Positions 1 to 41,486 of a DNA stretch of 64,000 nt are shown here, in pieces. A program made the translations under genes and the position numbers. This stretch comes from Escherichia coli. GTDB lineage: Bacteria > Pseudomonadota > Gammaproteobacteria > Enterobacterales > Enterobacteriaceae. Numbering within the stretch: the first letter of the stretch is position 1; every line of letters begins with the position of its first letter. The DNA lies in the NCBI RefSeq assembly GCF_001677475.2, contig NZ_CP015229.1; one strand, given 5' to 3'. The notes beneath the pieces were generated by a model. The model was not told the DNA's origin. It worked only from the letters and a program-made list of their open reading frames with translations, and ran no database searches.

Positions 1-3000
1 GTTCGTATAGGTACCGACAAAATCAATGCTATAGCCTGACTCTGTAGTCTGAACGCCGTATGAGTCAGTGATTTTGATCATGCCGCGCTGCTGGAAACGG
101 TAGAAATCGTCACAGGAAATGATGTCGTTAATCCCGGCGATGGAGACGCCACCACTGATTTTCTGCATAACAGCATCTTCATCGGGAGTTACATCCACCT
201 GTTTATCCAGCGTCTTCACATCCCAGTTACCCGATTTGGTGCCTTTGAAGGTAAAGATAATCTCCACGTCTGCGCGCTGGCTGTCGAAGTCCAGCGACTT
301 AATGCGAACGATATCACCGGCACAATCGTAGTATTGGCCTACACGCCATGAGCGATCGCCGATAACAAGGAACTCATTCGCATGGTTAACCAGATCAGGA
401 TCAACATCCAGAATGCCTTTATTTATTGCATCCTCCACCAGCGGGCGCAGGCGTTTGATATCCGTCGCGGCCTTCTGAGTACGGTTCAATAATTTCTCAT
501 AGCGGGAAATGGCTTGAGAGATATTAGCCTTGCGCTGAATGGCGCTTTTCAACGACGCGCGATACTGTGCTAACAACATACGGTCTGTGTGATGGACACT
601 CCCCCAGCGGGCCTTCCAGTCTGCGTTATCAGCTGCTTTGGCCATTACCGCCTGTTTGAATTTAGCTACCTCGTCGGTGCTCTTTTCAAATTCCGCTTTG
701 CTTCGCTCTAATTCAGCGGTAAGTACCTCCACATCCTCGCCAGCTGCGTGCTGCGCCTTGATGTAGTTCTGAAGGTCGATAGTAGCCTGTTCTTTCTGGC
801 GAGCGCGTTGCGCGGCTTTCGCCTTATCCATTTGAACCTGCATCATTGCCAGACGTTCGCCATCATCCTTAGCGGTATACATCTGCATTTCGATCATATC
901 GTTGGCGTCGGCGTTCTCCATTTCTGACTTATCTGAACGGAGGATATCGGAGATCCAGCCTGCTTTACGCTTCAGCGTCTTAAGTCGGTATTCATCGAAA
1001 GAACCCTTGCCGCAGTAGTAATGAACGCGAACGCTTGCACGGTTGGAGCCAACTCGGGCACCGCGACCGTTACGCTGTGCGATACTGGCTGGTGTCCATG
1101 GCAACGTCAGATGATGGATGTCAGTCGTTCCTCGATGCAGGTTGATACCCACCTCTGCCTTTTTGTTGCAGATGATGATCGGAGTCCAGCCCTCCTGGAA
1201 GTCGGCTGCAATCTTTTCCAGACCGCCCAACGACATTTCATTTTGCTGCGCGATATAGGCGTCATACAGAGCCATTTGCTCGTTGTATTTCGCTATCTGT
1301 GCATCTGTTGGTTCATCCGGTAGCTCTTTCGGCGGTTTAACAGCTTTCAGTTTCTGACCGGTTTTGCCTGCCTCGGCAACCGTCTGAGCATTCAGGATCC
1401 CCACCTTTGAAGGTTCAAGGTTAAGAGCATTGCAGATAATGCGTTTGAGCTTCTGGTGTTGCGTTTTTTCATCGGTGAAGATGATTTGCTTACCTTCCGG
1501 GAAAAACTCCTTCAGCGTGGCGATCAGCTTCGCGTATTTGGGCGTAACGGGGTGAGTTACGGTCTGTTCGTCAATGCCAAACTTGGCCAGGCGCTTATTC
1601 ACTTCCTGCTCAAACGCTTCCGGAACCTGCAACTGAATAAACTCGCCCTTATCTATCAGGGAGTATTGCGATTGCTGCGTGATTGAATCATCACTGTCGT
1701 CGTCTTCGCTGGTGGCTTGTTTAGGCAAACTGTCCGCCAGCTGCTGCACCGCATCGGCGTACTCCGGCAGGAAACGATAGGTGATCCGGCGATAGTACAG
1801 GTCCATGTCAGTACATACGCGGTCCATATCCCTGATTATTGAGAAGATCGGACGGGCTTTCTCGTGCTCAATCACGCCGTCTTCATTAACCGAGGTCGTT
1901 ACGCCATTGTTGGCTTTTGCTGCCGCTTCCGCCTGCTGACGCAATTCTTCATACGCCGCCAGTTGTTCTTCAGTAAGTGGTGCATCCTGCTGGTGTTCGT
2001 CCAGCTCCGGGATCTCCACGGTATCCTTAACGTCTTCCGCCGTTTTAAGCGTTACCCAGCGATGGAATATACCGCGCAGCGCATCAAGGTTTTCAAAGCC
2101 CACCAGCGCCATTTTTTCTTCAACTTCACCGCTGATTTTCTGTACCGTTTCCAGCCTGGTCTTGCCGAAGAATTTAACGAAGTCATCAGGACCGTAGATC
2201 CCCATCTTCTGCCAGTATTCCTTCGGCAGAACATGAGAAAGCATGTTGTATGCATCGATCGGGGTGTTAACGACTGGCGTTGCAGTCAGGAGAACCGGTC
2301 CGCGCCCGCCATTCTTTTTCATCAGGTACGCGTTTTTAATTGCCATATCCCGCGCCGATTGCGCCACCGCACTGGTGGGCAGATAGGCCAGTTGTGACGC
2401 TTCGCGACCATTTTTATAGCTATTGCGGTAGTTGTGGCCTTCGTCGGCGATCACGCTGTCGAAGCCCATATCCTCAAAGTACGGATACTTCTCTGCTTTT
2501 TCGGTACCGGTATCTGAATACTCCGACAATACCCGGCGACGCGCCGCCTCTTTGCGATGGGAATCGGAATCCATTGCGCTGGCCACACGTCCGGCAGCAA
2601 CGAAGTCATAAAGCATGTCTTGTGCATGCTCATCTACGGTGTCATCACGTAGCGGAATGCGGGCGTATTGTTCTTTGGTAAACACGACTGCACGGTAATT
2701 TGAGTGCGGGATCGCATTCATCCGCGCCGTGATAGTGGCTTCATCTGCCAGCTTAAGAGCATCGCGCATAACTGGAGTGCCATCAGCACCAAGAACAGGT
2801 TTACCGTTCTCATCGAGCACCGGCACCTGGCGAATCTGATCGCCATCCATCAGCACATCAAGACCGACGAACAGGTAGTTACTGAATGCCTCTTCACTCA
2901 GGAATTCTTTTGCTTCGTAATACCAGTTTTCCAGCACTGATTTAGGCACTACATACGCAGTACGGGTGGAGCGACCGTTCTCATAGTTGAACGCCTCAAG

Positions 3001-5598
3001 TGCCAGCGCGGTCGTGGTTTTACCCAGCCCGGTGCCGAAGCCCAGGATGCCGCGCCCATCTTCGGACAGTCGGCGCACCTCGCTATTCTGGTAATCAAAT
3101 GGCTGACGCTTACCGCTTAATCCCTTCAACCCAAGCGGATCGCCAGAGTGTTCATACGGGATATTGCTATTGAACACATCGTTGTATTTGGCAACCAGCT
3201 CATCGTAGCGATCGTGCGTCTTGATCCACTTATTGAACTGGTCCTCAAGCAGTGCCATCTGCTCGCGGTAGCCGTTCGCCGTCGCGCTATCTTTGCCACC
3301 GATACGCGCACCATTGAGATACTTTTCCAGCTGTGCCGGGAACCCGGTCGCGTTTTCACCTGATTTACGGTCCCACTCGTAGCGGATCTCGCCTGTTTCT
3401 TTATCCTTGCGCTGGACGACACCGTATCGGTGCCCGACGAACAGACCATCACCACCGTGATAGGTGTCAGAAACCATTTCGTCGCCTTCCAGCTGCACTG
3501 ACTGCACATAGCGCAGATCCGGATAGCCGTTTTTCTGCAAAAACTCCAGAATGACGGAGCGGTCGAACCAACGGCTATTGAGCTTAAAGCGGATATTCTC
3601 TGCTGGCGTCTTGATGCGCTTCTCTTCGATCGCTGCCAGCTGATTAAGGACGTTGTTCTTTACTGGACCGTCGGGGAGTGTGGCAAGGAATTCCTGTTTT
3701 GGAGCCACTATCTCGTTAATGTCGCCGCTGGTGGCGCGGGCGAACGGAACAATCCCGCCATACGGTGAAACCGCAATACCAGGGGTGCTGGCCAATAAAT
3801 TAAGCAACTCTTCATCACTGGCTGGCAGTTCGCCGGTAAACGCAAGGCGGAAATCATCGAGCTGGATTGGATCGCGGGTAAGATCGCTATAGAGATAACG
3901 CAGGGTGTCCTGATAGCTGGTGGAGTCATAACTGGCGCTGGAATCATGCGTAACCAGCTTTCCTGTCAGCTCGTCAGAAATAGTGCCATCCAGCTTAATT
4001 GCCCCACGGAAAGCAAACCAGGCGCGCGCACCGCTTCCCGATAATTTAGCTATCGGACCGCGACCGGGGTTACCAAAACGGTCAATCTCTGCCTGCAAAC
4101 GGGATACCAGAGAAAGGCGCTTCTGTTCGATTTGTTCAGCACTATGCCCGGCGGCCTTCATATCCTGATATTCAATTAACATCCGGCCAATCATCGCCCC
4201 GCGATACAAGCGTTCACGGTATTTTTCAGGCTGGCTGTTAATCCAGTCCACCAGCTGCACCATATCGTCGCTGATTGATGTGGTGTACTTATCGCGGACA
4301 TTTGCCATCTGGGTAAATGTCATACCGAGACGGCCTTCTGTTGTAGTCAGGTTACGCTGAAGAGCCTCCCAGCTATCCGCGCCATAACTGGCAGCATCAA
4401 TCTTAAGCTCCTTACCAGCATCAGCTTCAATCCAGCGACCACCAGCATATTTTTGCCATACGCCATTAATCAGGCGCATTTCCCCTTCATCAACAACATC
4501 TGCGGTCGGTGACGGTTCAGCCATATCGAGCAAAGACCAGTCGATACGACTTTCGAAACGATGAATCAGCTTCGCTTTAAGAGCCTGGTTATCAATCTGC
4601 CCGTCGGCACGAACCTCAATACGCCCCTGGAAGCCCTTTTCCTGGGTACCATGAACAAACCGGCGGCCATCCTTTTCAAACCACTTGCCAGAAATAAACG
4701 TTGGCCAAAGCACATTTGCCGATTCAAGAGTGCTTTCATCCACCAGGGGGATTTTCTCAGCCATCTCTGCCGGATGTTTGCGCATCAGCACCACATCAAC
4801 GACTGTACTGGTCCCGTTTGCGTCAAAAGTACCGGTAGGCAAGCGGTGGGCACCAAGAAATTCAGCTTTCCGTGATAGGCGCAGGCGTAACCGCTTCATG
4901 TTTGAACCTGAAACAATGGACGGCGGCACAATCACGCACATGAATCCGCCTGGCTTTATCTTGTCCAGCATGCGGAGCATGAAGTAAGAACCCATGTCCG
5001 TTTCTTCTGCGTAAGGCTTATCGATGTTGCGTGTGTTATCACGACCGCCGAACGGAACGTTACCCACAACATGGTCGAATGAATCGTTAGGTGTGCTTAT
5101 AGCCAGCTGTTCGAACGGGGAAATCTGTACGCTGTCTTCCGGGTGTAACAACTGGTTTATACGACCGGAAACACTGCTGATCTCAGTCGCGGTCATCACC
5201 GTACCAACCGGTTTTGTCTCATTAAAAACGCCAGTTCCCGCCGATGGTTCCAGAGTGTTACCTACGTCCGCGCCGTAGAGCTTCATGATCTCCCAGACAC
5301 CTTCAGCGATCGGCTTTGGTGTGTAATATTCGGAGACGGACCCGCCAATGCCGCCTTCACCGGTGTACCCAGCCAGGATCTGGCGCTGTTCATCTGTCAG
5401 TGTCGCGCCGTCCACCAGCGAATTAAGCAAATCTATCGCCTTCTGATTCGCCTCCCGGCGCAGTCGGTCATAGCTTTTGCCTTCCACCTTTTCCACGCCG
5501 TATTTAATCGGCGCTCGGTGAGATGTTATTGCCCTAATGTATTTCAATATTTCGCTGACACTTGAACAGCGAAACACCCCCATAGATAGCTTGTTCAT
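1..5598 (-). CDS. darB: DarB-like antirestriction protein, N-terminal methyltransferase plus helicase domains; partial, C-terminus lies beyond window start
   Basis: Reverse-strand frame opens at ATG 5598 behind an AAGGA RBS and stays open to position 1; it is absent from the ORF track because it has no stop in the window. Translation shows an amino-methyltransferase-like motif (GNVPFG), Walker A (GFGTGLGKTT) and DEGH helicase motif. Position next to portal/protease/lyz/ssb matches P1 order. Confidence 0.75.
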   Translation of the reverse strand, partial: MNKLSMGVFRCSSVSEILKYIRAITSHRAPIKYGVEKVEGKSYDRLRREANQKAIDLLNSLVDGATLTDEQRQILAGYTGEGGIGGSVSEYYTPKPIAEGVWEIMKLYGADVGNTLEPSAGTGVFNETKPVGTVMTATEISSVSGRINQLLHPEDSVQISPFEQLAISTPNDSFDHVVGNVPFGGRDNTRNIDKPYAEETDMGSYFMLRMLDKIKPGGFMCVIVPPSIVSGSNMKRLRLRLSRKAEFLGAHRLPTGTFDANGTSTVVDVVLMRKHPAEMAEKIPLVDESTLESANVLWPTFISGKWFEKDGRRFVHGTQEKGFQGRIEVRADGQIDNQALKAKLIHRFESRIDWSLLDMAEPSPTADVVDEGEMRLINGVWQKYAGGRWIEADAGKELKIDAASYGADSWEALQRNLTTTEGRLGMTFTQMANVRDKYTTSISDDMVQLVDWINSQPEKYRERLYRGAMIGRMLIEYQDMKAAGHSAEQIEQKRLSLVSRLQAEIDRFGNPGRGPIAKLSGSGARAWFAFRGAIKLDGTISDELTGKLVTHDSSASYDSTSYQDTLRYLYSDLTRDPIQLDDFRLAFTGELPASDEELLNLLASTPGIAVSPYGGIVPFARATSGDINEIVAPKQEFLATLPDGPVKNNVLNQLAAIEEKRIKTPAENIRFKLNSRWFDRSVILEFLQKNGYPDLRYVQSVQLEGDEMVSDTYHGGDGLFVGHRYGVVQRKDKETGEIRYEWDRKSGENATGFPAQLEKYLNGARIGGKDSATANGYREQMALLEDQFNKWIKTHDRYDELVAKYNDVFNSNIPYEHSGDPLGLKGLSGKRQPFDYQNSEVRRLSEDGRGILGFGTGLGKTTTALALEAFNYENGRSTRTAYVVPKSVLENWYYEAKEFLSEEAFSNYLFVGLDVLMDGDQIRQVPVLDENGKPVLGADGTPVMRDALKLADEATITARMNAIPHSNYRAVVFTKEQYARIPLRDDTVDEHAQDMLYDFVAAGRVASAMDSDSHRKEAARRRVLSEYSDTGTEKAEKYPYFEDMGFDSVIADEGHNYRNSYKNGREASQLAYLPTSAVAQSARDMAIKNAYLMKKNGGRGPVLLTATPVVNTPIDAYNMLSHVLPKEYWQKMGIYGPDDFVKFFGKTRLETVQKISGEVEEKMALVGFENLDALRGIFHRWVTLKTAEDVKDTVEIPELDEHQQDAPLTEEQLAAYEELRQQAEAAAKANNGVTTSVNEDGVIEHEKARPIFSIIRDMDRVCTDMDLYYRRITYRFLPEYADAVQQLADSLPKQATSEDDDSDDSITQQSQYSLIDKGEFIQLQVPEAFEQEVNKRLAKFGIDEQTVTHPVTPKYAKLIATLKEFFPEGKQIIFTDEKTQHQKLKRIICNALNLEPSKVGILNAQTVAEAGKTGQKLKAVKPPKELPDEPTDAQIAKYNEQMALYDAYIAQQNEMSLGGLEKIAADFQEGWTPIIICNKKAEVGINLHRGTTDIHHLTLPWTPASIAQRNGRGARVGSNRASVRVHYYCGKGSFDEYRLKTLKRKAGWISDILRSDKSEMENADANDMIEMQMYTAKDDGERLAMMQVQMDKAKAAQRARQKEQATIDLQNYIKAQHAAGEDVEVLTAELERSKAEFEKSTDEVAKFKQAVMAKAADNADWKARWGSVHHTDRMLLAQYRASLKSAIQRKANISQAISRYEKLLNRTQKAATDIKRLRPLVEDAINKGILDVDPDLVNHANEFLVIGDRSWRVGQYYDCAGDIVRIKSLDFDSQRADVEIIFTFKGTKSGNWDVKTLDKQVDVTPDEDAVMQKISGGVSIAGINDIISCDDFYRFQQRGMIKITDSYGVQTTESGYSIDFVGTYTN

Positions 5599-36865: not shown

Positions 36866-37310
<445 letters not shown>

Positions 37311-37400
37311 GTTATTTCAAGCCTTTTAAGCCCCTTCAAAAATGCCCGCATCTCCTTTTAAAGCGAATTTTAAAGAAGCTCCAAAAGCAGGTCAATTAAG

Positions 37401-37916
37401 TCAACCTGCCTTTGCTTTTACGCTGTGTGAGAGAATACTTGCTTCAATTTCTTCCAAAATCTCTCTGACTTGCTCGTCGGACATATCAACCAACATCAAT
37501 GCAGCCAGGCGTTTACGACCCTCTAGTTGCAGCAGTTCTTGAGTATCTTTGTCCAATAAGCGTAGTACCGTTTCAACGCCTTTCCTTGCGAACATGCTGG
37601 TAAGAGCCTCTCGTTCTTCACTAGTAAGAAACGAGAGCATCTCAGTTAGCTGATCGCCTTGACTTAAACTGCTTTGTGATTCTTGTATTTTTGGTGGGTT
37701 TCCGTTGCCTGTTTTTAACCATTCAAGACTAACACCTTCACTTTCTGCAATGCGTACCAATATGCTTTCTCGAGGTTCTGGTGTGTTTCCCTTTTTAAAA
37801 TAGCTTTGTAACGTATTGATATTTATTCCCCAGGCTCTGGCTGCAGCACTTCTTGATGGATACCGTCTAATAAGATATGCCATGCGCTCTACGATAGGTT
37901 CTTTTGCTTGCTCCAT
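37401..37916 (-). CDS. Mu-like prophage repressor (c-like), N-terminal HTH
   Basis: Leftward gene divergent from ner/A/B; HTH-like segment RSAAARAWGININTLQSY. Confidence 0.6.
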   Translation of the reverse strand: MEQAKEPIVERMAYLIRRYPSRSAAARAWGININTLQSYFKKGNTPEPRESILVRIAESEGVSLEWLKTGNGNPPKIQESQSSLSQGDQLTEMLSFLTSEEREALTSMFARKGVETVLRLLDKDTQELLQLEGRKRLAALMLVDMSDEQVREILEEIEASILSHSVKAKAG

Positions 37917-38107
37917 AAAAGTACCTCTAGGTATTTTTCTGCATAAAGGTTCTTTTCCATCTATCTAATTGAATAGAAAGGAAAATTCAAAAATACAAAC
38001 AAAATACAAAAAATACCTTGTAATGGTACTTTTTGTGATCTACGATTTTATCCATACGGATATCCGACCGGATATCCGCGCGGGTAACTTTGTAGGGTAA
38101 AGGAAAG
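37917..38107. promoter_or_regulatory. divergent early promoter/operator region with tandem palindromes CGGATATCCG and AAATACAAA repeats
   Basis: Two copies of the 10-bp palindrome separated by 2 bp just upstream of ner. Confidence 0.5.
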
Positions 38108-38359
38108 ATGAGACAAAGAGAAGATCGCGACCGCGATTGGCCTTCGCTAAAGATTCAGCTGGCGCTCAAAGATAATGGGTGGTCTTCCTTCCGGGAGCTT
38201 TCACTCCATGCTGGTTATGCTCAGGATTCACTGAAAGCGGTAGTTCGTACACCGAACAAAAAATACGAACGCGTAATTTCTGACGCTATAGGTGTACCGC
38301 CAGAAATCATCTGGCCCAGCCGGTATCGTAACGATGGATTTATCAGGAAGGCGTCGTGA
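38108..38359 (+). CDS. ner: Ner-like DNA-binding protein
   Basis: Pattern DW...L...SL.ALS...GY...L......P...E.II...L...PE.IWPSRY matches Mu Ner/Nlp. Confidence 0.8.
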   Translation: MRQREDRDRDWPSLKIQLALKDNGWSSFRELSLHAGYAQDSLKAVVRTPNKKYERVISDAIGVPPEIIWPSRYRNDGFIRKAS

Positions 38360-38360
38360 T

Positions 38361-40457
38361 ATGCAGTTGTACGTTACCGCAAACGACTTGCTCGGCGTAC
38401 CAGGAATGCCAGTCACTGCAAAAGGTATCCGTCAGGCGTTACAGCGTTTTGCCCATGGGCGCAATGACGTTAGCCGCCGACGTGAAGGCACAAAAGCCAT
38501 TGAATACCACATCGATTGCCTGCCAGAGGTAACTCAAAGGGCACTGCGTGAACGCTATGTGGAACAGCTGGTGGCTACAGAGAACAATGTTTCTGAAGTG
38601 AAGGTTGTTACCAGGAAGGCTCGTAATCCTGATGCAGTCCAGGCAATCGAAGCATATCGCGGTTCTCCACAACTGATGGAAGAACGCCTGAACGCGTTGA
38701 CCGAAAACCAGCGCCGGGTATCTGAAGCAAGATCTGCGCTGGTGGTGGAAGTGCTGAGGCTGGAAAGAGACGGTGATCTCGGGCGACTGAAAGCCATTAA
38801 CTTTCTTGTCGAAAAAGCCCGTAAAGGTGAACTACCGGAACGCCTGCAACAGGCCGCAGTTAACGCCAATGCAAAACGTGGTGCTAATCGCACCATCAGT
38901 CGTGACCCACTTTATCAGTGGGTGCTGAAGTACAACCAGTCACAGAACGCCGCAGAACGGCTGCTGTTACTGGCACCAGGAAAACGCGACGAAATAAAAC
39001 CGGAGGAAATTAGCTGGCTACCTGAATTTCTGGCGCAGTATCGCCAGGCGAATGGCAGACCTATGTCAGAAGCCTACGAAGATTTTGTCGCGGAATGGCA
39101 GCGTCGCCATGCAGACGAACCCTACATGATAGAGGTGATGCCCTCTTACGATGTGGTTCGTTATGCCATGAAGAAATTGCCGGAAGTGGTGAAACAAAAA
39201 GGCCGTGTTACCGGCAGTGAATACCGTCAGCTTGAAGGATTCACCCGCCGCGACTGGACAGCTATGCCGGTGAATTATGTCTGGATTGGTGACGGTCACG
39301 GTATGAAGCTGAAATGTGCGCATCCGATCCACGGGCGTCCATTCTCACCAGAAGTCACGTTTGTGATCGACGGTGGAACCCGGTTTGTTGTTGGCTGGAG
39401 TCTTGATCTTGCCGAGAACGTTTTCGCCGTTGCCGGAGCGATACAGCACGGCATTCGCAACCACGGAAAACCGTTCCTGTATTACTCGGATAACGGTTCT
39501 GGTGAAACGGCTGACATGCTTGACAAAGAGGTCGTGGGTATTCTGCCCCGCCTGGGGATTAAACACCCAACAGGTATTGCCGGTAATCCACAGGGGCGCG
39601 GCATTATTGAACGCCTGAACCGGACACTGCCGATGCGTATAGCCAGGAGGTATCGCACCTATTTTGGCAAGGGTGCTGACCGGGAATCGTTGCGTGTACT
39701 TAACCGTGATCTGCGTTCAGCGTTTAACGCCCTGCAACAGGACAAGCCTCTGAACGACCGCCAGAAAGCTGCAATGCGCGAGCTACCATCGTGGGCGGAG
39801 CTTATTGAGGCTATTCGTGAAGGCGTGGAATGGTACAACAACCGCCCGCATTCTGAGCTGCCTATGAAACCGAACGGGCGGCATTACAGCCCGGCAGAGT
39901 TCAGAAAAAAACGCCTGGCAGAAGAAGACACCGAAATTGAGTGGCTGAGTGATCTTGAGCTGCGCGACATGTTCCGCCCGATGGTGGAGCGTCCGGTAAA
40001 ACGCTGTGAAATCAAATGGCTTGGCAATATTTATTACGCGCCGGAGCTGCGTGACGAACACGGTCGCAAAGTGCTTATCAGTTATGACATTCATGACGCC
40101 GAGCGAATTACGGTACGTCGCAAGGACGGCAGCTTTATCTGTGAGGCGATATGGAACGGCAATAAACGCGCAGCCTTCCCTGTCAGTGCGGAATATCACA
40201 AACAACAGCAGCGTATTAAAGGGATGCGCAAACGCGCTGAGGAAAAAATTCGCGATGCTGAAGATGAAGGTATTCAGATTCTGGAACACAAACAGGCTGA
40301 ACCCTGGCTGGATAATGTTTATCGCCCGGTTGGTAATGTGGTGGCCGTTCAGCAACCGGAATATGAAGAAGAGCATGACGAAGAATTTGAACGCGATTTC
40401 AGACTGGGGATGCAAAAACTTTTTGCCATGCAGGAAGAAGATGATCCGCTGGCCTGA
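38361..40457 (+). CDS. Mu-type DDE transposase A
   Basis: Track ORF 38292-40457 trimmed to the ATG; N-terminus parallels Mu A (PG.P.T..G......KGGKAIEY); about 700 aa. Confidence 0.85.
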   Translation: MQLYVTANDLLGVPGMPVTAKGIRQALQRFAHGRNDVSRRREGTKAIEYHIDCLPEVTQRALRERYVEQLVATENNVSEVKVVTRKARNPDAVQAIEAYRGSPQLMEERLNALTENQRRVSEARSALVVEVLRLERDGDLGRLKAINFLVEKARKGELPERLQQAAVNANAKRGANRTISRDPLYQWVLKYNQSQNAAERLLLLAPGKRDEIKPEEISWLPEFLAQYRQANGRPMSEAYEDFVAEWQRRHADEPYMIEVMPSYDVVRYAMKKLPEVVKQKGRVTGSEYRQLEGFTRRDWTAMPVNYVWIGDGHGMKLKCAHPIHGRPFSPEVTFVIDGGTRFVVGWSLDLAENVFAVAGAIQHGIRNHGKPFLYYSDNGSGETADMLDKEVVGILPRLGIKHPTGIAGNPQGRGIIERLNRTLPMRIARRYRTYFGKGADRESLRVLNRDLRSAFNALQQDKPLNDRQKAAMRELPSWAELIEAIREGVEWYNNRPHSELPMKPNGRHYSPAEFRKKRLAEEDTEIEWLSDLELRDMFRPMVERPVKRCEIKWLGNIYYAPELRDEHGRKVLISYDIHDAERITVRRKDGSFICEAIWNGNKRAAFPVSAEYHKQQQRIKGMRKRAEEKIRDAEDEGIQILEHKQAEPWLDNVYRPVGNVVAVQQPEYEEEHDEEFERDFRLGMQKLFAMQEEDDPLA

Positions 40458-40532: not shown

Positions 40533-41486
40533 ATGACTGATATTGATGATGTTTTCAACACTATTAATACGTTGATCAACGAGGGCGACAAGCCCCAGGA
40601 AGATATTGCTGATGAGGCCGGAATGTCTCCGGCAACACTCTCGGCTCTGCGTAAAGGAGAATACAAAGGCAATGTCGAAGGTATGCATGACAAATTACAG
40701 GAATGGTATCGGGTCTGGCAAAAAGGGCAGAATTTGTCAGGTGCCCCCGGCGTTGTGAAGACCCAGACATTTTGTGATTTGCATGAGCTGTTTAAAACAG
40801 TGCGCTCACTCGGGATTATCAGTGTTGTTGTTGGCGTACCGGGTGTCGGCAAAACTTTTGCTGCACGGGAATATTGCCGCAAGACAGCTAATGCCTGGAT
40901 GGTGACGCTTGCACCGGCACATTCGAGCGTAACGGAATGCCTCCTTGAAATAGCATATGCGCTGGAAATTAATAATCCGGGAAGAAATAAGGGGAATATA
41001 ACCCGCGCCATTCGCAGAAAACTGGGCGGTGGTAAAGAAACCAGTGGCCGTGTTAACCCCCTGCTGATTATTGATGAAGCTGATCACTTAAGTGTGGATG
41101 GTCTGGAGCAATTACGCGCCATTCAGGATGCTACTGGCGTGGGGATGGTTTTAATTGGCAACCCGAAACAGATGGCGGATGCCACCCGTCGTGGGACTGA
41201 TGAACTGGCTCGTTTGTTCAGCCGTTTTGCCATGACAAAACAACTGCGCAAAGTGAAAAAGACTGATGTGATGGCTGTAGCCAAAGCATGGGGAGTAACA
41301 CAGGAAGATGAGCTGGATCTGCTGATGAGGGTTGCCGAAAAGCCCGGGGGATTGCGTGTATTAACTCACACACTGAATCATGCGTGGCTGGCGGCGAAAG
41401 GTGCTGGTTCATCCCTGAATAAAAGTCACATAAAAGCGGCTTTTAAGGAGGCTTACAGCAACCCTAAGTTGCTGAACTGGCAGTAA
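40533..41486 (+). CDS. Mu B-type AAA+ target-DNA activator
   Basis: Walker A GVPGVGKT, Walker B LLIIDEADHL; directly after transposase. Confidence 0.85.
   Translation: MTDIDDVFNTINTLINEGDKPQEDIADEAGMSPATLSALRKGEYKGNVEGMHDKLQEWYRVWQKGQNLSGAPGVVKTQTFCDLHELFKTVRSLGIISVVVGVPGVGKTFAAREYCRKTANAWMVTLAPAHSSVTECLLEIAYALEINNPGRNKGNITRAIRRKLGGGKETSGRVNPLLIIDEADHLSVDGLEQLRAIQDATGVGMVLIGNPKQMADATRRGTDELARLFSRFAMTKQLRKVKKTDVMAVAKAWGVTQEDELDLLMRVAEKPGGLRVLTHTLNHAWLAAKGAGSSLNKSHIKAAFKEAYSNPKLLNWQ

What the first reader, a model, noticed from the sequence alone, without database searches (positions are those of the whole stretch)
37917..38107. Tandem palindromes CGGATATCCG in the Mu-like repressor/ner switch region
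Two copies of a perfect 10-bp palindrome separated by 2 bp lie just upstream of ner, preceded by AAATACAAA repeats. They are good candidates for the operator sites that set the lysogeny/transposition decision of this element.
Basis: seen in the sequence. Interest (0 to 1): 0.35.

Follow-up and report, generated by a model that had tools for sequence, protein, structure and literature searches.

The report
Ner operator of a Mu-like prophage
The two back-to-back palindromes are real and are most likely where the phage's small Ner (Cro-like) regulator binds at the start of the transposase operon of a Mu-like prophage: an ordinary example of a known kind of genetic switch, though this version has not been described.

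Summary
Confirmed. CGGATATCCG occurs exactly twice in the 64 kb window, at 38057-38066 and 38069-38078, 29 bp upstream of a Ner homologue. The gene order is that of Mu: c repressor (minus strand), then ner, MuA and MuB.

Comparison with about 35 related loci gives three results.
- **The palindromes go with ner, not c.** They stay identical where the repressor is only 81% or 46% identical and the A/T-rich repeats have been replaced.
- **They are the core of a larger array.** Seven GGRTAW hexamers in five units about 12 bp apart span 38048-38100, from just after a conserved Pe-like promoter to the ner ribosome-binding site. This is where the dyad repeats I recall as the Ner sites lie in Mu and D108.
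- **Most relatives carry GATAACC/GGTTATC.** This lineage has a symmetric A>T / T>A change that makes each unit self-palindromic. The change coincides with Ner His12>Pro.

The AAATACAAA repeats belong to a separate half-site family, AAAA(A/G)TACC. That family varies with the repressor's helix-turn-helix and flanks the Pe -35 hexamer.

Best reading: Ner operator (palindromes) plus c operators (A/T repeats). Binding is untested. It is a new member of a known kind and of low to moderate interest.

The parts
37153..37156 (.). Left end of the Mu-like prophage (TG at 37155-37156) and its junction with P1-like plasmid DNA
   Evidence: P1-like plasmids match the window only up to 37152. From TGACCAAGTAAATT... 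onward the sequence matches the left end of the E. coli FDAARGOS_943 Mu-like prophage inserted in narI.
37401..37916 (-). c-type immunity repressor, 171 aa, with a CI-like helix-turn-helix
   Evidence: ORF. It gives weak Pfam matches to Phage_CI_repr and HTH_19. It is 81% identical to the L001 repressor and 46% identical to the L003 repressor. It shows no similarity to the MuA N-terminus.
37917..37938 (.). Inverted repeat AAAAGTACC-tcta-GGTATTTTT over the c start codon and ribosome-binding site; candidate c operator
   Evidence: two of the four intergenic AAAAWRTACC half-sites lie here. The matching inverted repeat in relatives uses each locus's own half-site in the short-c loci.
37989..38017 (+).
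   Evidence: families D3, D4. Relatives carry tandem AAAATACC or AAAGAACC at the same place, in step with the repressor type.
38006..38036 (.). Inverted repeat ACAAAAAATACC-ttgtaat-GGTACTTTTTGT straddling the Pe -35 hexamer; candidate main c operator, equivalent to Mu O2
   Evidence: I2: 12-nt arms, 92% complementary. Every relative has an inverted repeat around its -35, and its sequence changes with the repressor.
38018..38046 (+). Candidate early promoter Pe: TTGTAA, 17 bp spacer, TACGAT
   Evidence: Read; it matches 8 of 12 consensus positions, below the scan threshold. The homologous position in L031 scores 10 of 12 (TTGACA-17-TATGCT). Mu Pe (TTTACA-17-TATCTT, 993-1021) lies the same distance before its dyad repeat.
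38048..38053 (-). Unit U0: TTATCC, which is GGATAA on the minus strand
   Evidence: Conserved TTATCC block in alignment A2. It is one of the hexamers in the cluster.
38057..38066 (.). Palindrome 1 (unit U1), CGGATATCCG; candidate Ner operator core
38069..38078 (.). Palindrome 2 (unit U2), CGGATATCCG; candidate Ner operator core
38082..38088 (+). Unit U3: GGGTAAC, in 12-bp phase with U1 and U2
   Evidence: TAA is invariant in all 26 aligned loci. Hexamer cluster.
38095..38100 (+). Unit U4: GGGTAA, overlapping the ner ribosome-binding region
   Evidence: Its conservation may partly reflect the Shine-Dalgarno sequence.
38108..38359 (+). ner gene, 83 aa
   Evidence: Pfam HTH_35, E 1e-13. Mu Ner 1NEQ, E 3.6e-7, and EnrR 7F9H, E 1.8e-5. 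It is 35% identical to Mu Ner and 34% identical to D108 Ner.
38361..40457 (+). MuA-type transposase
   Evidence: Pfam Mu-transpos_C, HTH_Tnp_Mu_1 and rve.
40533..41486 (+). MuB-type ATPase
   Evidence: Pfam Phage-MuB_C and AAA_22.

Best explanation
The two CGGATATCCG palindromes are the core of the operator for the prophage's Ner protein, the Cro-like early regulator of Mu-type transposable phages. They belong to an array of GGRTAW hexamers (five units U0-U4 about 12 bp apart, 38048-38100). The array begins a few bases after the -10 hexamer of the early promoter Pe and ends at the ner ribosome-binding site. Once Pe fires, Ner accumulates and binds these units. The likely stoichiometry is one monomer per half-site, with neighbours contacting each other as in the EnrR-DNA crystal. 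Bound at about +4 to +48 of Pe, Ner would throttle transcription of ner, A and B. It would also block any leftward repressor transcription that has to start in or cross this segment, and so commit the phage to transposition and lytic growth. The A/T-rich repeats upstream, including AAATACAAA, are a different site family, AAAA(A/G)TACC. Those are bound by the c repressor and overlap the Pe -35 and the c translation start. Shown here: the sequence features, their conservation, which gene each travels with, and the homology of the proteins. Inferred: binding, stoichiometry, transcription start points and regulatory outcome.
For: 1. Context: the gene order c(-)/ner/MuA/MuB and the protein homologies.
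2. Linkage to ner: the palindromes are base-for-base identical in L001, L003 and L007-L010. In those loci the repressor is 81% or 46% identical and the A/T repeats are replaced by other half-sites.
3. Phylogenetic footprint: in a gap-free alignment of 26 loci from Escherichia, Yersinia, Serratia, Pantoea, Kluyvera, Erwinia and others, with Ner 43-100% identical, the segment from the -10 to the ATG is conserved as TTATCC / GAGATAACC / GGTTATCC / GGrTAAC / AGGATAG in 12-bp phase.
4. Dyad symmetry: 79.5% of cells pair, against 23-45% when the partner is slid. One symmetric double change (A.T to T.A, columns 36/45) in 6 loci creates GGATATCC.
5. Covariation with Ner: all 6 loci with ATATCC units have Ner DWP, and all 17 with ATAACC/GTTATCC have H at that position. 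The equivalent EnrR residues, His20 and Arg21, contact the DNA backbone (PMC9023278).
6. Hexamer cluster: 7 GGRTAW hexamers in 53 bp against 0.17 expected per 60 bp, the densest cluster in the window.
7. Position: the site starts 11 bp after the candidate Pe -10. In Mu the dyad AGCTAGCTAAGT-N6-ACTTAGTTAAAT (1029-1058) starts 8 bp after the Pe -10, and in D108 CCGTGAGCTAC-N8-GTAGCTCACGG lies 25 bp before ner. That these dyads are the footprinted Ner sites is my recollection of Tolias & DuBow 1985/86, Goosen & van de Putte and Kukolj et al. 1989; I did not retrieve those papers.
8. Independence from MuA: a sequence model of the array hits once in the window and otherwise only directly upstream of ner homologues. 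A c-ner pair without any transposase (L055, followed by an amino-acid permease) still has GGTTAACC / GGGTAAT / GGGTAAT in phase before its ner-like gene.
Against: - No binding data exist for this Ner.
- The site shares no sequence with the Mu or D108 dyad repeats. That is expected at 34-35% protein identity, but it means nothing is transferred by sequence homology of the site.
- Linkage to ner could partly reflect physical adjacency, if the recombination breakpoint simply falls near the Pe -10.
- U3 and U4 overlap the ribosome-binding region, and possibly a leftward promoter, so their conservation has other possible causes.
- Pe is weak by consensus (8 of 12) and no transcription start has been mapped.
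- The P12/H12 covariation rests on at most two independent lineages.
- Dyad symmetry is equally compatible with an RNA hairpin.
Confidence: 0.75

Rival explanations
1. The palindromes act mainly as RNA. They form a 9-bp hairpin at the 5' end of the early transcript, and of any leftward transcript, which would stabilise the mRNA or modulate ner translation rather than bind protein. This could also coexist with Ner binding.
For: Predicted hairpin of -18.8 kcal/mol (z -2.05) on the plus strand and -20.0 kcal/mol (z -3.25) on the minus strand. The dyad is conserved, with one double-sided change.
Against: The arms are conserved in sequence, not only in complementarity: 5 of the 9 pairs depart only by unpaired cells. 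L013 and L035 lose the dyad (GATAACC...GATTACC) yet keep the 12-bp phased hexamers. Units U0, U3 and U4 carry the same hexamer outside the hairpin. There is no Rfam match, no U-tract and no terminator call on the plus strand.
Confidence: 0.1
2. The palindromes are an operator for the c repressor, equivalent to Mu O3, and not for Ner.
For: They lie in the c-ner intergenic region. From memory, in Mu O3 lies close to the Ner site.
Against: The palindromes are unchanged in loci whose repressor is 46% identical and whose A/T half-sites are different. They do not resemble the AAAA(A/G)TACC family that covaries with the repressor helix-turn-helix.
Confidence: 0.06
3. The palindromes are part of a transpositional enhancer bound by the N-terminal domain of the MuA-type transposase.
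For: MuA here has the Mu DNA-binding domain PF02316. The enhancer of Mu lies in this intergenic region (from memory). The palindromes are linked to A as well as to ner. The repressor and the MuA N-terminus are not homologous here, so the enhancer need not coincide with the c operators.
Against: A related phased motif persists upstream of a ner-like gene in L055, which has no transposase. The site's position and dyad character match those of the dyads upstream of ner in Mu and D108.
Confidence: 0.05
4. The tandem palindromes are a chance or compositional feature, for example two EcoRV sites, with no function.
For: GATATC is about twice as frequent as expected in the window.
Against: The expected number of such tandem palindromes is about 6e-5 per window. 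The site is identical or conservatively varied at the same position in dozens of loci.
Confidence: 0.01

Closest known systems
Ner operator of phage Mu (AGCTAGCTAAGT-N6-ACTTAGTTAAAT, Mu 1029-1058)
   Same: It lies between the early promoter Pe and ner, starting a few bp after the Pe -10. It is made of units of about 12 bp with dyad symmetry. The adjacent gene encodes a homologous HTH_35 protein.
   Different: There is no sequence similarity between the sites. The Mu arms are 12 bp with a 6-bp spacer (18 bp centre to centre), whereas here the units are 12 bp apart, each is self-palindromic, and the array has five units. Ner is only 35% identical.
Ner operator of phage D108 (CCGTGAGCTAC-N8-GTAGCTCACGG)
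   Same: It is a perfect inverted repeat directly upstream of ner, and it shows that Ner specificities diverge between close relatives (literature from memory).
   Different: Different sequence, 11-bp arms, 8-bp spacer and a single dyad.
EnrR of Edwardsiella piscicida (PDB 7F9H/7F9I), a Ner-like protein crystallised on DNA
   Same: It is a homologous fold (E 1.8e-5). Monomers pack side by side on a compact palindrome. The residues equivalent to Ner P12 and S13 lie at the DNA backbone.
   Different: EnrR is a global nucleoid-associated regulator that recognises AT-rich AATAAATNATTTATT. It has an N-terminal extension that contacts the minor groove and is not part of a phage switch.
Lambda Cro and the OR operators
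   Same: The logic is the same: a small early protein binds dyad sites between divergent regulatory genes, turning down both the early operon and repressor synthesis.
   Different: The protein family is unrelated in detail. In lambda, Cro and CI share the same operators, whereas here Ner and c appear to have separate site families.

Membership tests
Ner operator of Mu-type transposable phages | Lies immediately upstream of a ner (HTH_35) gene, between the early promoter and the ner start | tested here: met
   Ner homology. The site spans 38048-38100, between the candidate Pe -10 (38041-38046) and the ATG at 38108. Mu and D108 have the same layout.
Ner operator of Mu-type transposable phages | Repeated units of 10-12 bp with dyad symmetry | tested here: met
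   Two perfect 10-bp palindromes with a 12-bp period. The dyad is conserved in relatives.
Ner operator of Mu-type transposable phages | Site sequence changes with Ner and not with the c repressor | tested here: met
   The palindromes are identical with swapped repressors. ATATCC against ATAACC tracks Ner P12 against H12. A model of the array is found only upstream of related ner genes.
Ner operator of Mu-type transposable phages | Bound by Ner, with repression of Pe and of repressor transcription | not testable with these tools
   This needs EMSA or footprinting and reporter assays.
Ner operator of Mu-type transposable phages | Sequence similarity to the Mu or D108 Ner sites | tested here: not met
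   Reading against one search shows no shared motif. Mu and D108 themselves share none, so this is not a strict requirement.
c-repressor operators (Mu O1-O3 type) | Several copies of a half-site that covaries with the repressor and overlaps Pe | tested here: not met
   This is not met for the palindromes. It is met for the A/T-rich AAAA(A/G)TACC family at 37916-38036.
Mu-like transposable prophage | MuA DDE transposase with the Mu C-terminal domain, MuB ATPase, c and ner at the left end, TG terminus | tested here: met
   The right end lies outside the window.
Intrinsic terminator or structured RNA element | A stable hairpin followed by a U-tract, or a match to a curated RNA family | tested here: not met
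   A hairpin is predicted, but there is no U-tract, no terminator call at this site and no Rfam match.

The most novel reading that the evidence does not exclude
The window lineage carries a switched Ner specificity. A symmetric A.T to T.A change in both half-sites turns the ancestral GATAACC-N4-GGTTATC dyad into two self-palindromic GGATATCC units, and it is coupled to His12>Pro at the start of Ner helix 1. Because each unit can then be read in either orientation, Ner might assemble as a continuous array of about five units, phased 12 bp apart, from the Pe start to the ner ribosome-binding site. That would be a filament-like mode closer to EnrR than to a classical dimer-operator pair. It would define a separate Ner 'anti-immunity' type that recombines independently of c immunity.
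Probability: 0.2. Interest if true: 0.4.

Novelty: new member of a known kind. Interest (0 to 1): 0.25.

Why it matters
The result gives a concrete, testable operator consensus, GGRTAW units phased 12 bp apart, for a large Enterobacterales branch of the Ner family. Until now only the Mu and D108 sites and the EnrR motif had been defined. It also separates the Ner sites from the repressor sites in the switch. It shows that the immunity module (c, its operators and Pe) and the ner module recombine independently, with the breakpoint near the Pe -10. Finally, it points to one candidate specificity residue, position 12. This helps with annotating Mu-like prophages and designing reporters, but it does not change how such switches are understood.

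Tried and rejected
- **IHF site.** The consensus WATCAANNNNTTR has no match with at most 1 mismatch in 37900-38110, so a Mu-like IHF site between the operators could not be placed.
- **Leftward repressor promoter (Pc).** I could not locate it. The scan found no promoter in the intergenic region. My hand-read candidates are weak and not convincingly conserved (TTGAAT-17-TAGATA on the minus strand at 37990-37962; TTGTCT-16-TACAAA at 38116-38089). The claim that Ner also blocks c transcription therefore rests on analogy with Mu.
- **E. coli K-12 sfsB (nlp) upstream region.** It has no GGRTAW array. SfsB is closer to Mu Ner, so this gives no independent test.
- **Primary papers on the Mu and D108 Ner footprints.** They are not in the held library. 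What I say about those sites comes from memory, from the GenBank annotation and from reading the sequences.
- **Literature search for the 10-mer.** It returned only unrelated primer sequences.
- **Similarity between the repressor and the MuA N-terminus, as in Mu.** None was found.
- **Rfam.** No match.
- **Enrichment of one-mismatch copies.** I checked it and put it down to GATATC abundance.

Full report
**Observation.** The interval 37917-38107 is exactly the intergenic region between a leftward 171-aa repressor-like ORF (37401-37916) and a rightward 83-aa ORF (38108-38359). CGGATATCCG occurs at 38057-38066 and again at 38069-38078, with AC between the copies. These are the only exact copies in the 64 kb window. 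By my own arithmetic, a 10-bp palindrome repeated after 2 bp is expected about 6e-5 times per window. One search also lists 11 one-mismatch copies against 1.6 expected. These do not point to further sites. GATATC is simply common here (33 copies), and the count of GGATATCC (6) matches its maximal-order Markov expectation of 6.3. AAATACAAA lies at 37991 and 38002, inside an 11-bp tandem repeat.

**Context.**
- The 83-aa protein matches Pfam HTH_35 (E 1e-13) and the solved Mu Ner structure 1NEQ (E 3.6e-7). It is 35% identical to Mu Ner and 34% identical to D108 Ner.
- Downstream lie a MuA-type transposase (Mu-transpos_C, HTH_Tnp_Mu_1, rve) and a MuB-type ATPase.
- The repressor gives only weak CI-like helix-turn-helix matches and, unlike Mu c, has no similarity to the transposase N-terminus.
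- The left end of the element is at about 37153-37155. P1-like plasmids match the window only up to 37152. From TGACCAAGTAAATT onward the sequence matches the end of a related prophage inserted in narI of E. coli FDAARGOS_943.
- The 37 kb to the left is a P1-like phage-plasmid carrying sit, bplA, pmgB and tub.

**Which gene do the palindromes go with?**
- L001 has a repressor 81% identical to the window's. The A/T-rich part of its intergenic region differs, yet CATACGGATATCCGACCGGATATCCGCGCGGGTAA is identical.
- L003 and the IMG/VR loci L007-L010 have Ner 98-100% identical, while the L003 repressor is only 46% identical and L007's predicted c N-terminus is the same as L003's. Their A/T repeats are of another type (ACCAAAGAACC / GGAATCTTTGGT), yet the palindromes are again identical.
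- The palindromes therefore go with the ner side and the A/T repeats with the c side. The breakpoint between the two modules lies near the -10 of the rightward promoter.

**Phylogenetic footprint.** Scans with the Ner protein returned 19 viral and 80 genomic loci. For 26 loci with Ner 43-100% identical, the 83 bp before the ner ATG align without gaps (alignment A2). The genera include Escherichia, Yersinia phage Tongde, Pseudomonas phage VW-6B, Serratia, Erwinia, Izhakiella, Mixta, Buttiauxella, Pantoea, Kluyvera and Cedecea.
- The consensus is a -10-like TAnnnT, then TTTATCCGTA, GAGATAACCnCn, CGGTTATCCGCn, CGGnTAACTTTT and TAGGATAGATGA, then ATG.
- This amounts to five units about 12 bp apart, each carrying a GGRTAW-type hexamer in one orientation or the other.
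- In the window the hexamers start at 38058, 38070, 38082 and 38095 on the plus strand, and at 38048, 38060 and 38072 on the minus strand. That is seven in 53 bp where 0.17 per 60 bp is expected, and it is the densest cluster in the window.
- A sequence-only model built from A2 hits once in the window. Elsewhere it hits only directly upstream of ner homologues from Edwardsiella, Morganella and the IMG/VR loci, and weakly in a few others. More distant Ner homologues have other sites.

**What is special in this lineage.**
- Most relatives have the dyad GATAACC-N4-GGTTATC.
- The window, L001, L003, L004, L011 and L002 have A>T in the left arm and T>A in the right arm (A2 columns 36 and 45). This is the only well-populated double-sided change in the dyad (6 sequences). 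It makes each unit self-palindromic (GGATATCC).
- All six of these loci have Ner 'DWP', whereas the 17 others have H at that position. L002's Ner otherwise resembles the H group, so the association spans two rather different backgrounds.
- In the EnrR-DNA crystal structure the equivalent residues, His20 and Arg21 at the start of helix 1, contact the DNA backbone (PMC9023278).
- This is a lead and not a proof, because it rests on at most two independent events.

**Position relative to promoters.**
- TTGTAA (38018-38023), a 17-bp spacer and TACGAT (38041-38046) form a weak sigma-70-like promoter. It matches 8 of 12 consensus positions, below the threshold of the scan.
- The homologous hexamers in relatives are better. 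L031 has TTGACA-17-TATGCT (10 of 12), and several others read TTGATT or TTGAAT with TAnnnT.
- A start near 38053 would put the palindromes at about +4 to +26.
- In Mu the scan finds Pe at 993-1021, which agrees with the GenBank feature 991-1028 labelled as part of the Ner binding region. The dyad AGCTAGCTAAGT-N6-ACTTAGTTAAAT follows at 1029-1058.
- In D108 the perfect dyad CCGTGAGCTAC-N8-GTAGCTCACGG lies 25 bp before ner.
- That these dyads are the footprinted Ner sites is my recollection of Tolias & DuBow 1985/86, Goosen & van de Putte 1984/86 and Kukolj et al. 1989. Those papers were not retrievable here.
- The geometry is the same, but the sequences are unrelated, as they also are between Mu and D108.

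**The A/T-rich repeats.**
- The half-site AAAAWRTACC (at most 1 mismatch) has 17 hits in the window. Four of them fall in 37916-38034.
- Two form an inverted repeat over the c start codon and ribosome-binding site (37917-37938). Two form the inverted repeat ACAAAAAATACC-N7-GGTACTTTTTGT, which straddles the Pe -35 (I2).
- The AAATACAAA copies are tandem, slightly degenerate versions directly upstream.
- Across loci, the repressor's helix-turn-helix and these half-sites change together. Types with ...NT(L)(N/Q/K)SYF go with AAAATACC, and ...NYY types go with AAAGAAC(C).
- These repeats are therefore the likely c operators, equivalent to Mu O1/O2. Their position at about -38 to -65 of Pe would also suit an UP-like or bent segment.
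- One caveat applies. In loci with a longer c N-terminus, the inverted repeat at the c start lies in codons for K-E...G-S-F. There it does not always match the -35 repeat (L032, L034), so part of its conservation is coding constraint.

**Mechanism proposed.** After the repressor is lost, Pe fires and Ner is the first product. Ner binds U1 and U2, and probably U0, U3 and U4 as well, on one face of the helix. This would limit further transcription of ner, A and B. By analogy with Mu, where Ner is described as shutting off repressor transcription (PMC9936078), it would also prevent renewed c expression. EnrR shows that monomeric Ner-like proteins can pack side by side on a compact palindrome, which fits one monomer per half-site. 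All steps after 'the sites are there, conserved and ner-linked' are inference.

**Rival explanations.**
- *RNA hairpin.* A 9-bp stem is predicted on both strands. However, the arms are conserved in sequence and not only in pairing. Two loci lose the dyad yet keep the phased hexamers. The hexamer also recurs outside the stem. There is no U-tract and no Rfam match. A secondary role at the 5' end of the mRNA cannot be excluded.
- *c-repressor site.* The repressor swaps argue against it.
- *MuA enhancer element.* This cannot be excluded by linkage alone, because A is linked too. But L055 (Pseudocitrobacter) has a c-like gene and a ner-like gene followed by an amino-acid permease with no transposase, and it still shows GGTTAACC, GGGTAAT and GGGTAAT in phase before the ner-like gene.
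- *Chance.* Conservation excludes it.

**Novelty and score.**
- The kind of element, a Ner operator in the c-ner switch of a transposable phage, is well known.
- This site family (GGRTAW units phased 12 bp apart, with the GGATATCC variant) does not appear in the literature I could search.
- The prophage type is rare in complete E. coli genomes: 3 of 5426 genomes match the region.
- I rate it a new member of a known kind, with interest 0.25.
- The most novel reading still open is a specificity switch coupled to His12>Pro, with array-like Ner binding. I give it a probability of about 0.2 and an interest of 0.4 if true.

Noticed in passing
window 1-37152 against 37153-64000: The Mu-like prophage sits inside a P1-like phage-plasmid carrying sit, bplA, pmgB and tub. 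It interrupts the ORF at 36866-37174. All 507 PLSDB records that match the flank stop at 37152, so none carries this insertion. G+C content is 48.9% in the P1 part and 54.5% in the Mu-like part.
   Followed up: partly
window 37917-37960 (minus strand): Upstream of the c start there is a short ORF, ATG CAG AAA AAT ACC TAG (MQKNT*), with its own GGAAAAG ribosome-binding-like sequence. It looks like the remnant of the longer N-terminus (M.KE..GSF...GKEP) seen in related repressors. The window and L001 repressors start at the second KEP motif.
   Followed up: partly
L055 (Pseudocitrobacter faecalis) 766-3191; possibly also L050, L058 and L063: A c-like helix-turn-helix gene and a ner-like gene stand next to an amino-acid permease with no transposase. 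This may be a domesticated or decayed c-ner pair, and it still has phased GGTTAACC/GGGTAAT motifs upstream of the ner-like gene.
   Followed up: partly
Ner residue 12 (window 38141-38143) against A2 columns 36/45: Pro12 occurs in 6 of 6 loci with ATATCC units, and His12 in 17 of 17 loci with ATAACC/GTTATCC units. The equivalent EnrR residue lies at the DNA backbone.
   Followed up: partly
window 17039 and 17089: Two further exact GGATATCC octamers lie 50 bp apart in the P1-like part. This is the second densest GGRTAW cluster in the window (4 in 60 bp).
   Followed up: no
window 37367-37414 (minus strand): A 14-pair terminator-like hairpin (37414-37382) lies right at the 3' end of the c gene. 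A promoter-like match, TTGACC-17-TAAAAT (37395-37367), points leftward toward the prophage end.
   Followed up: no
window 38124-38137: A palindrome ATCGCGGTCGCGAT lies inside the first codons of ner. The scan flagged it as terminator-like on the minus strand.
   Followed up: no
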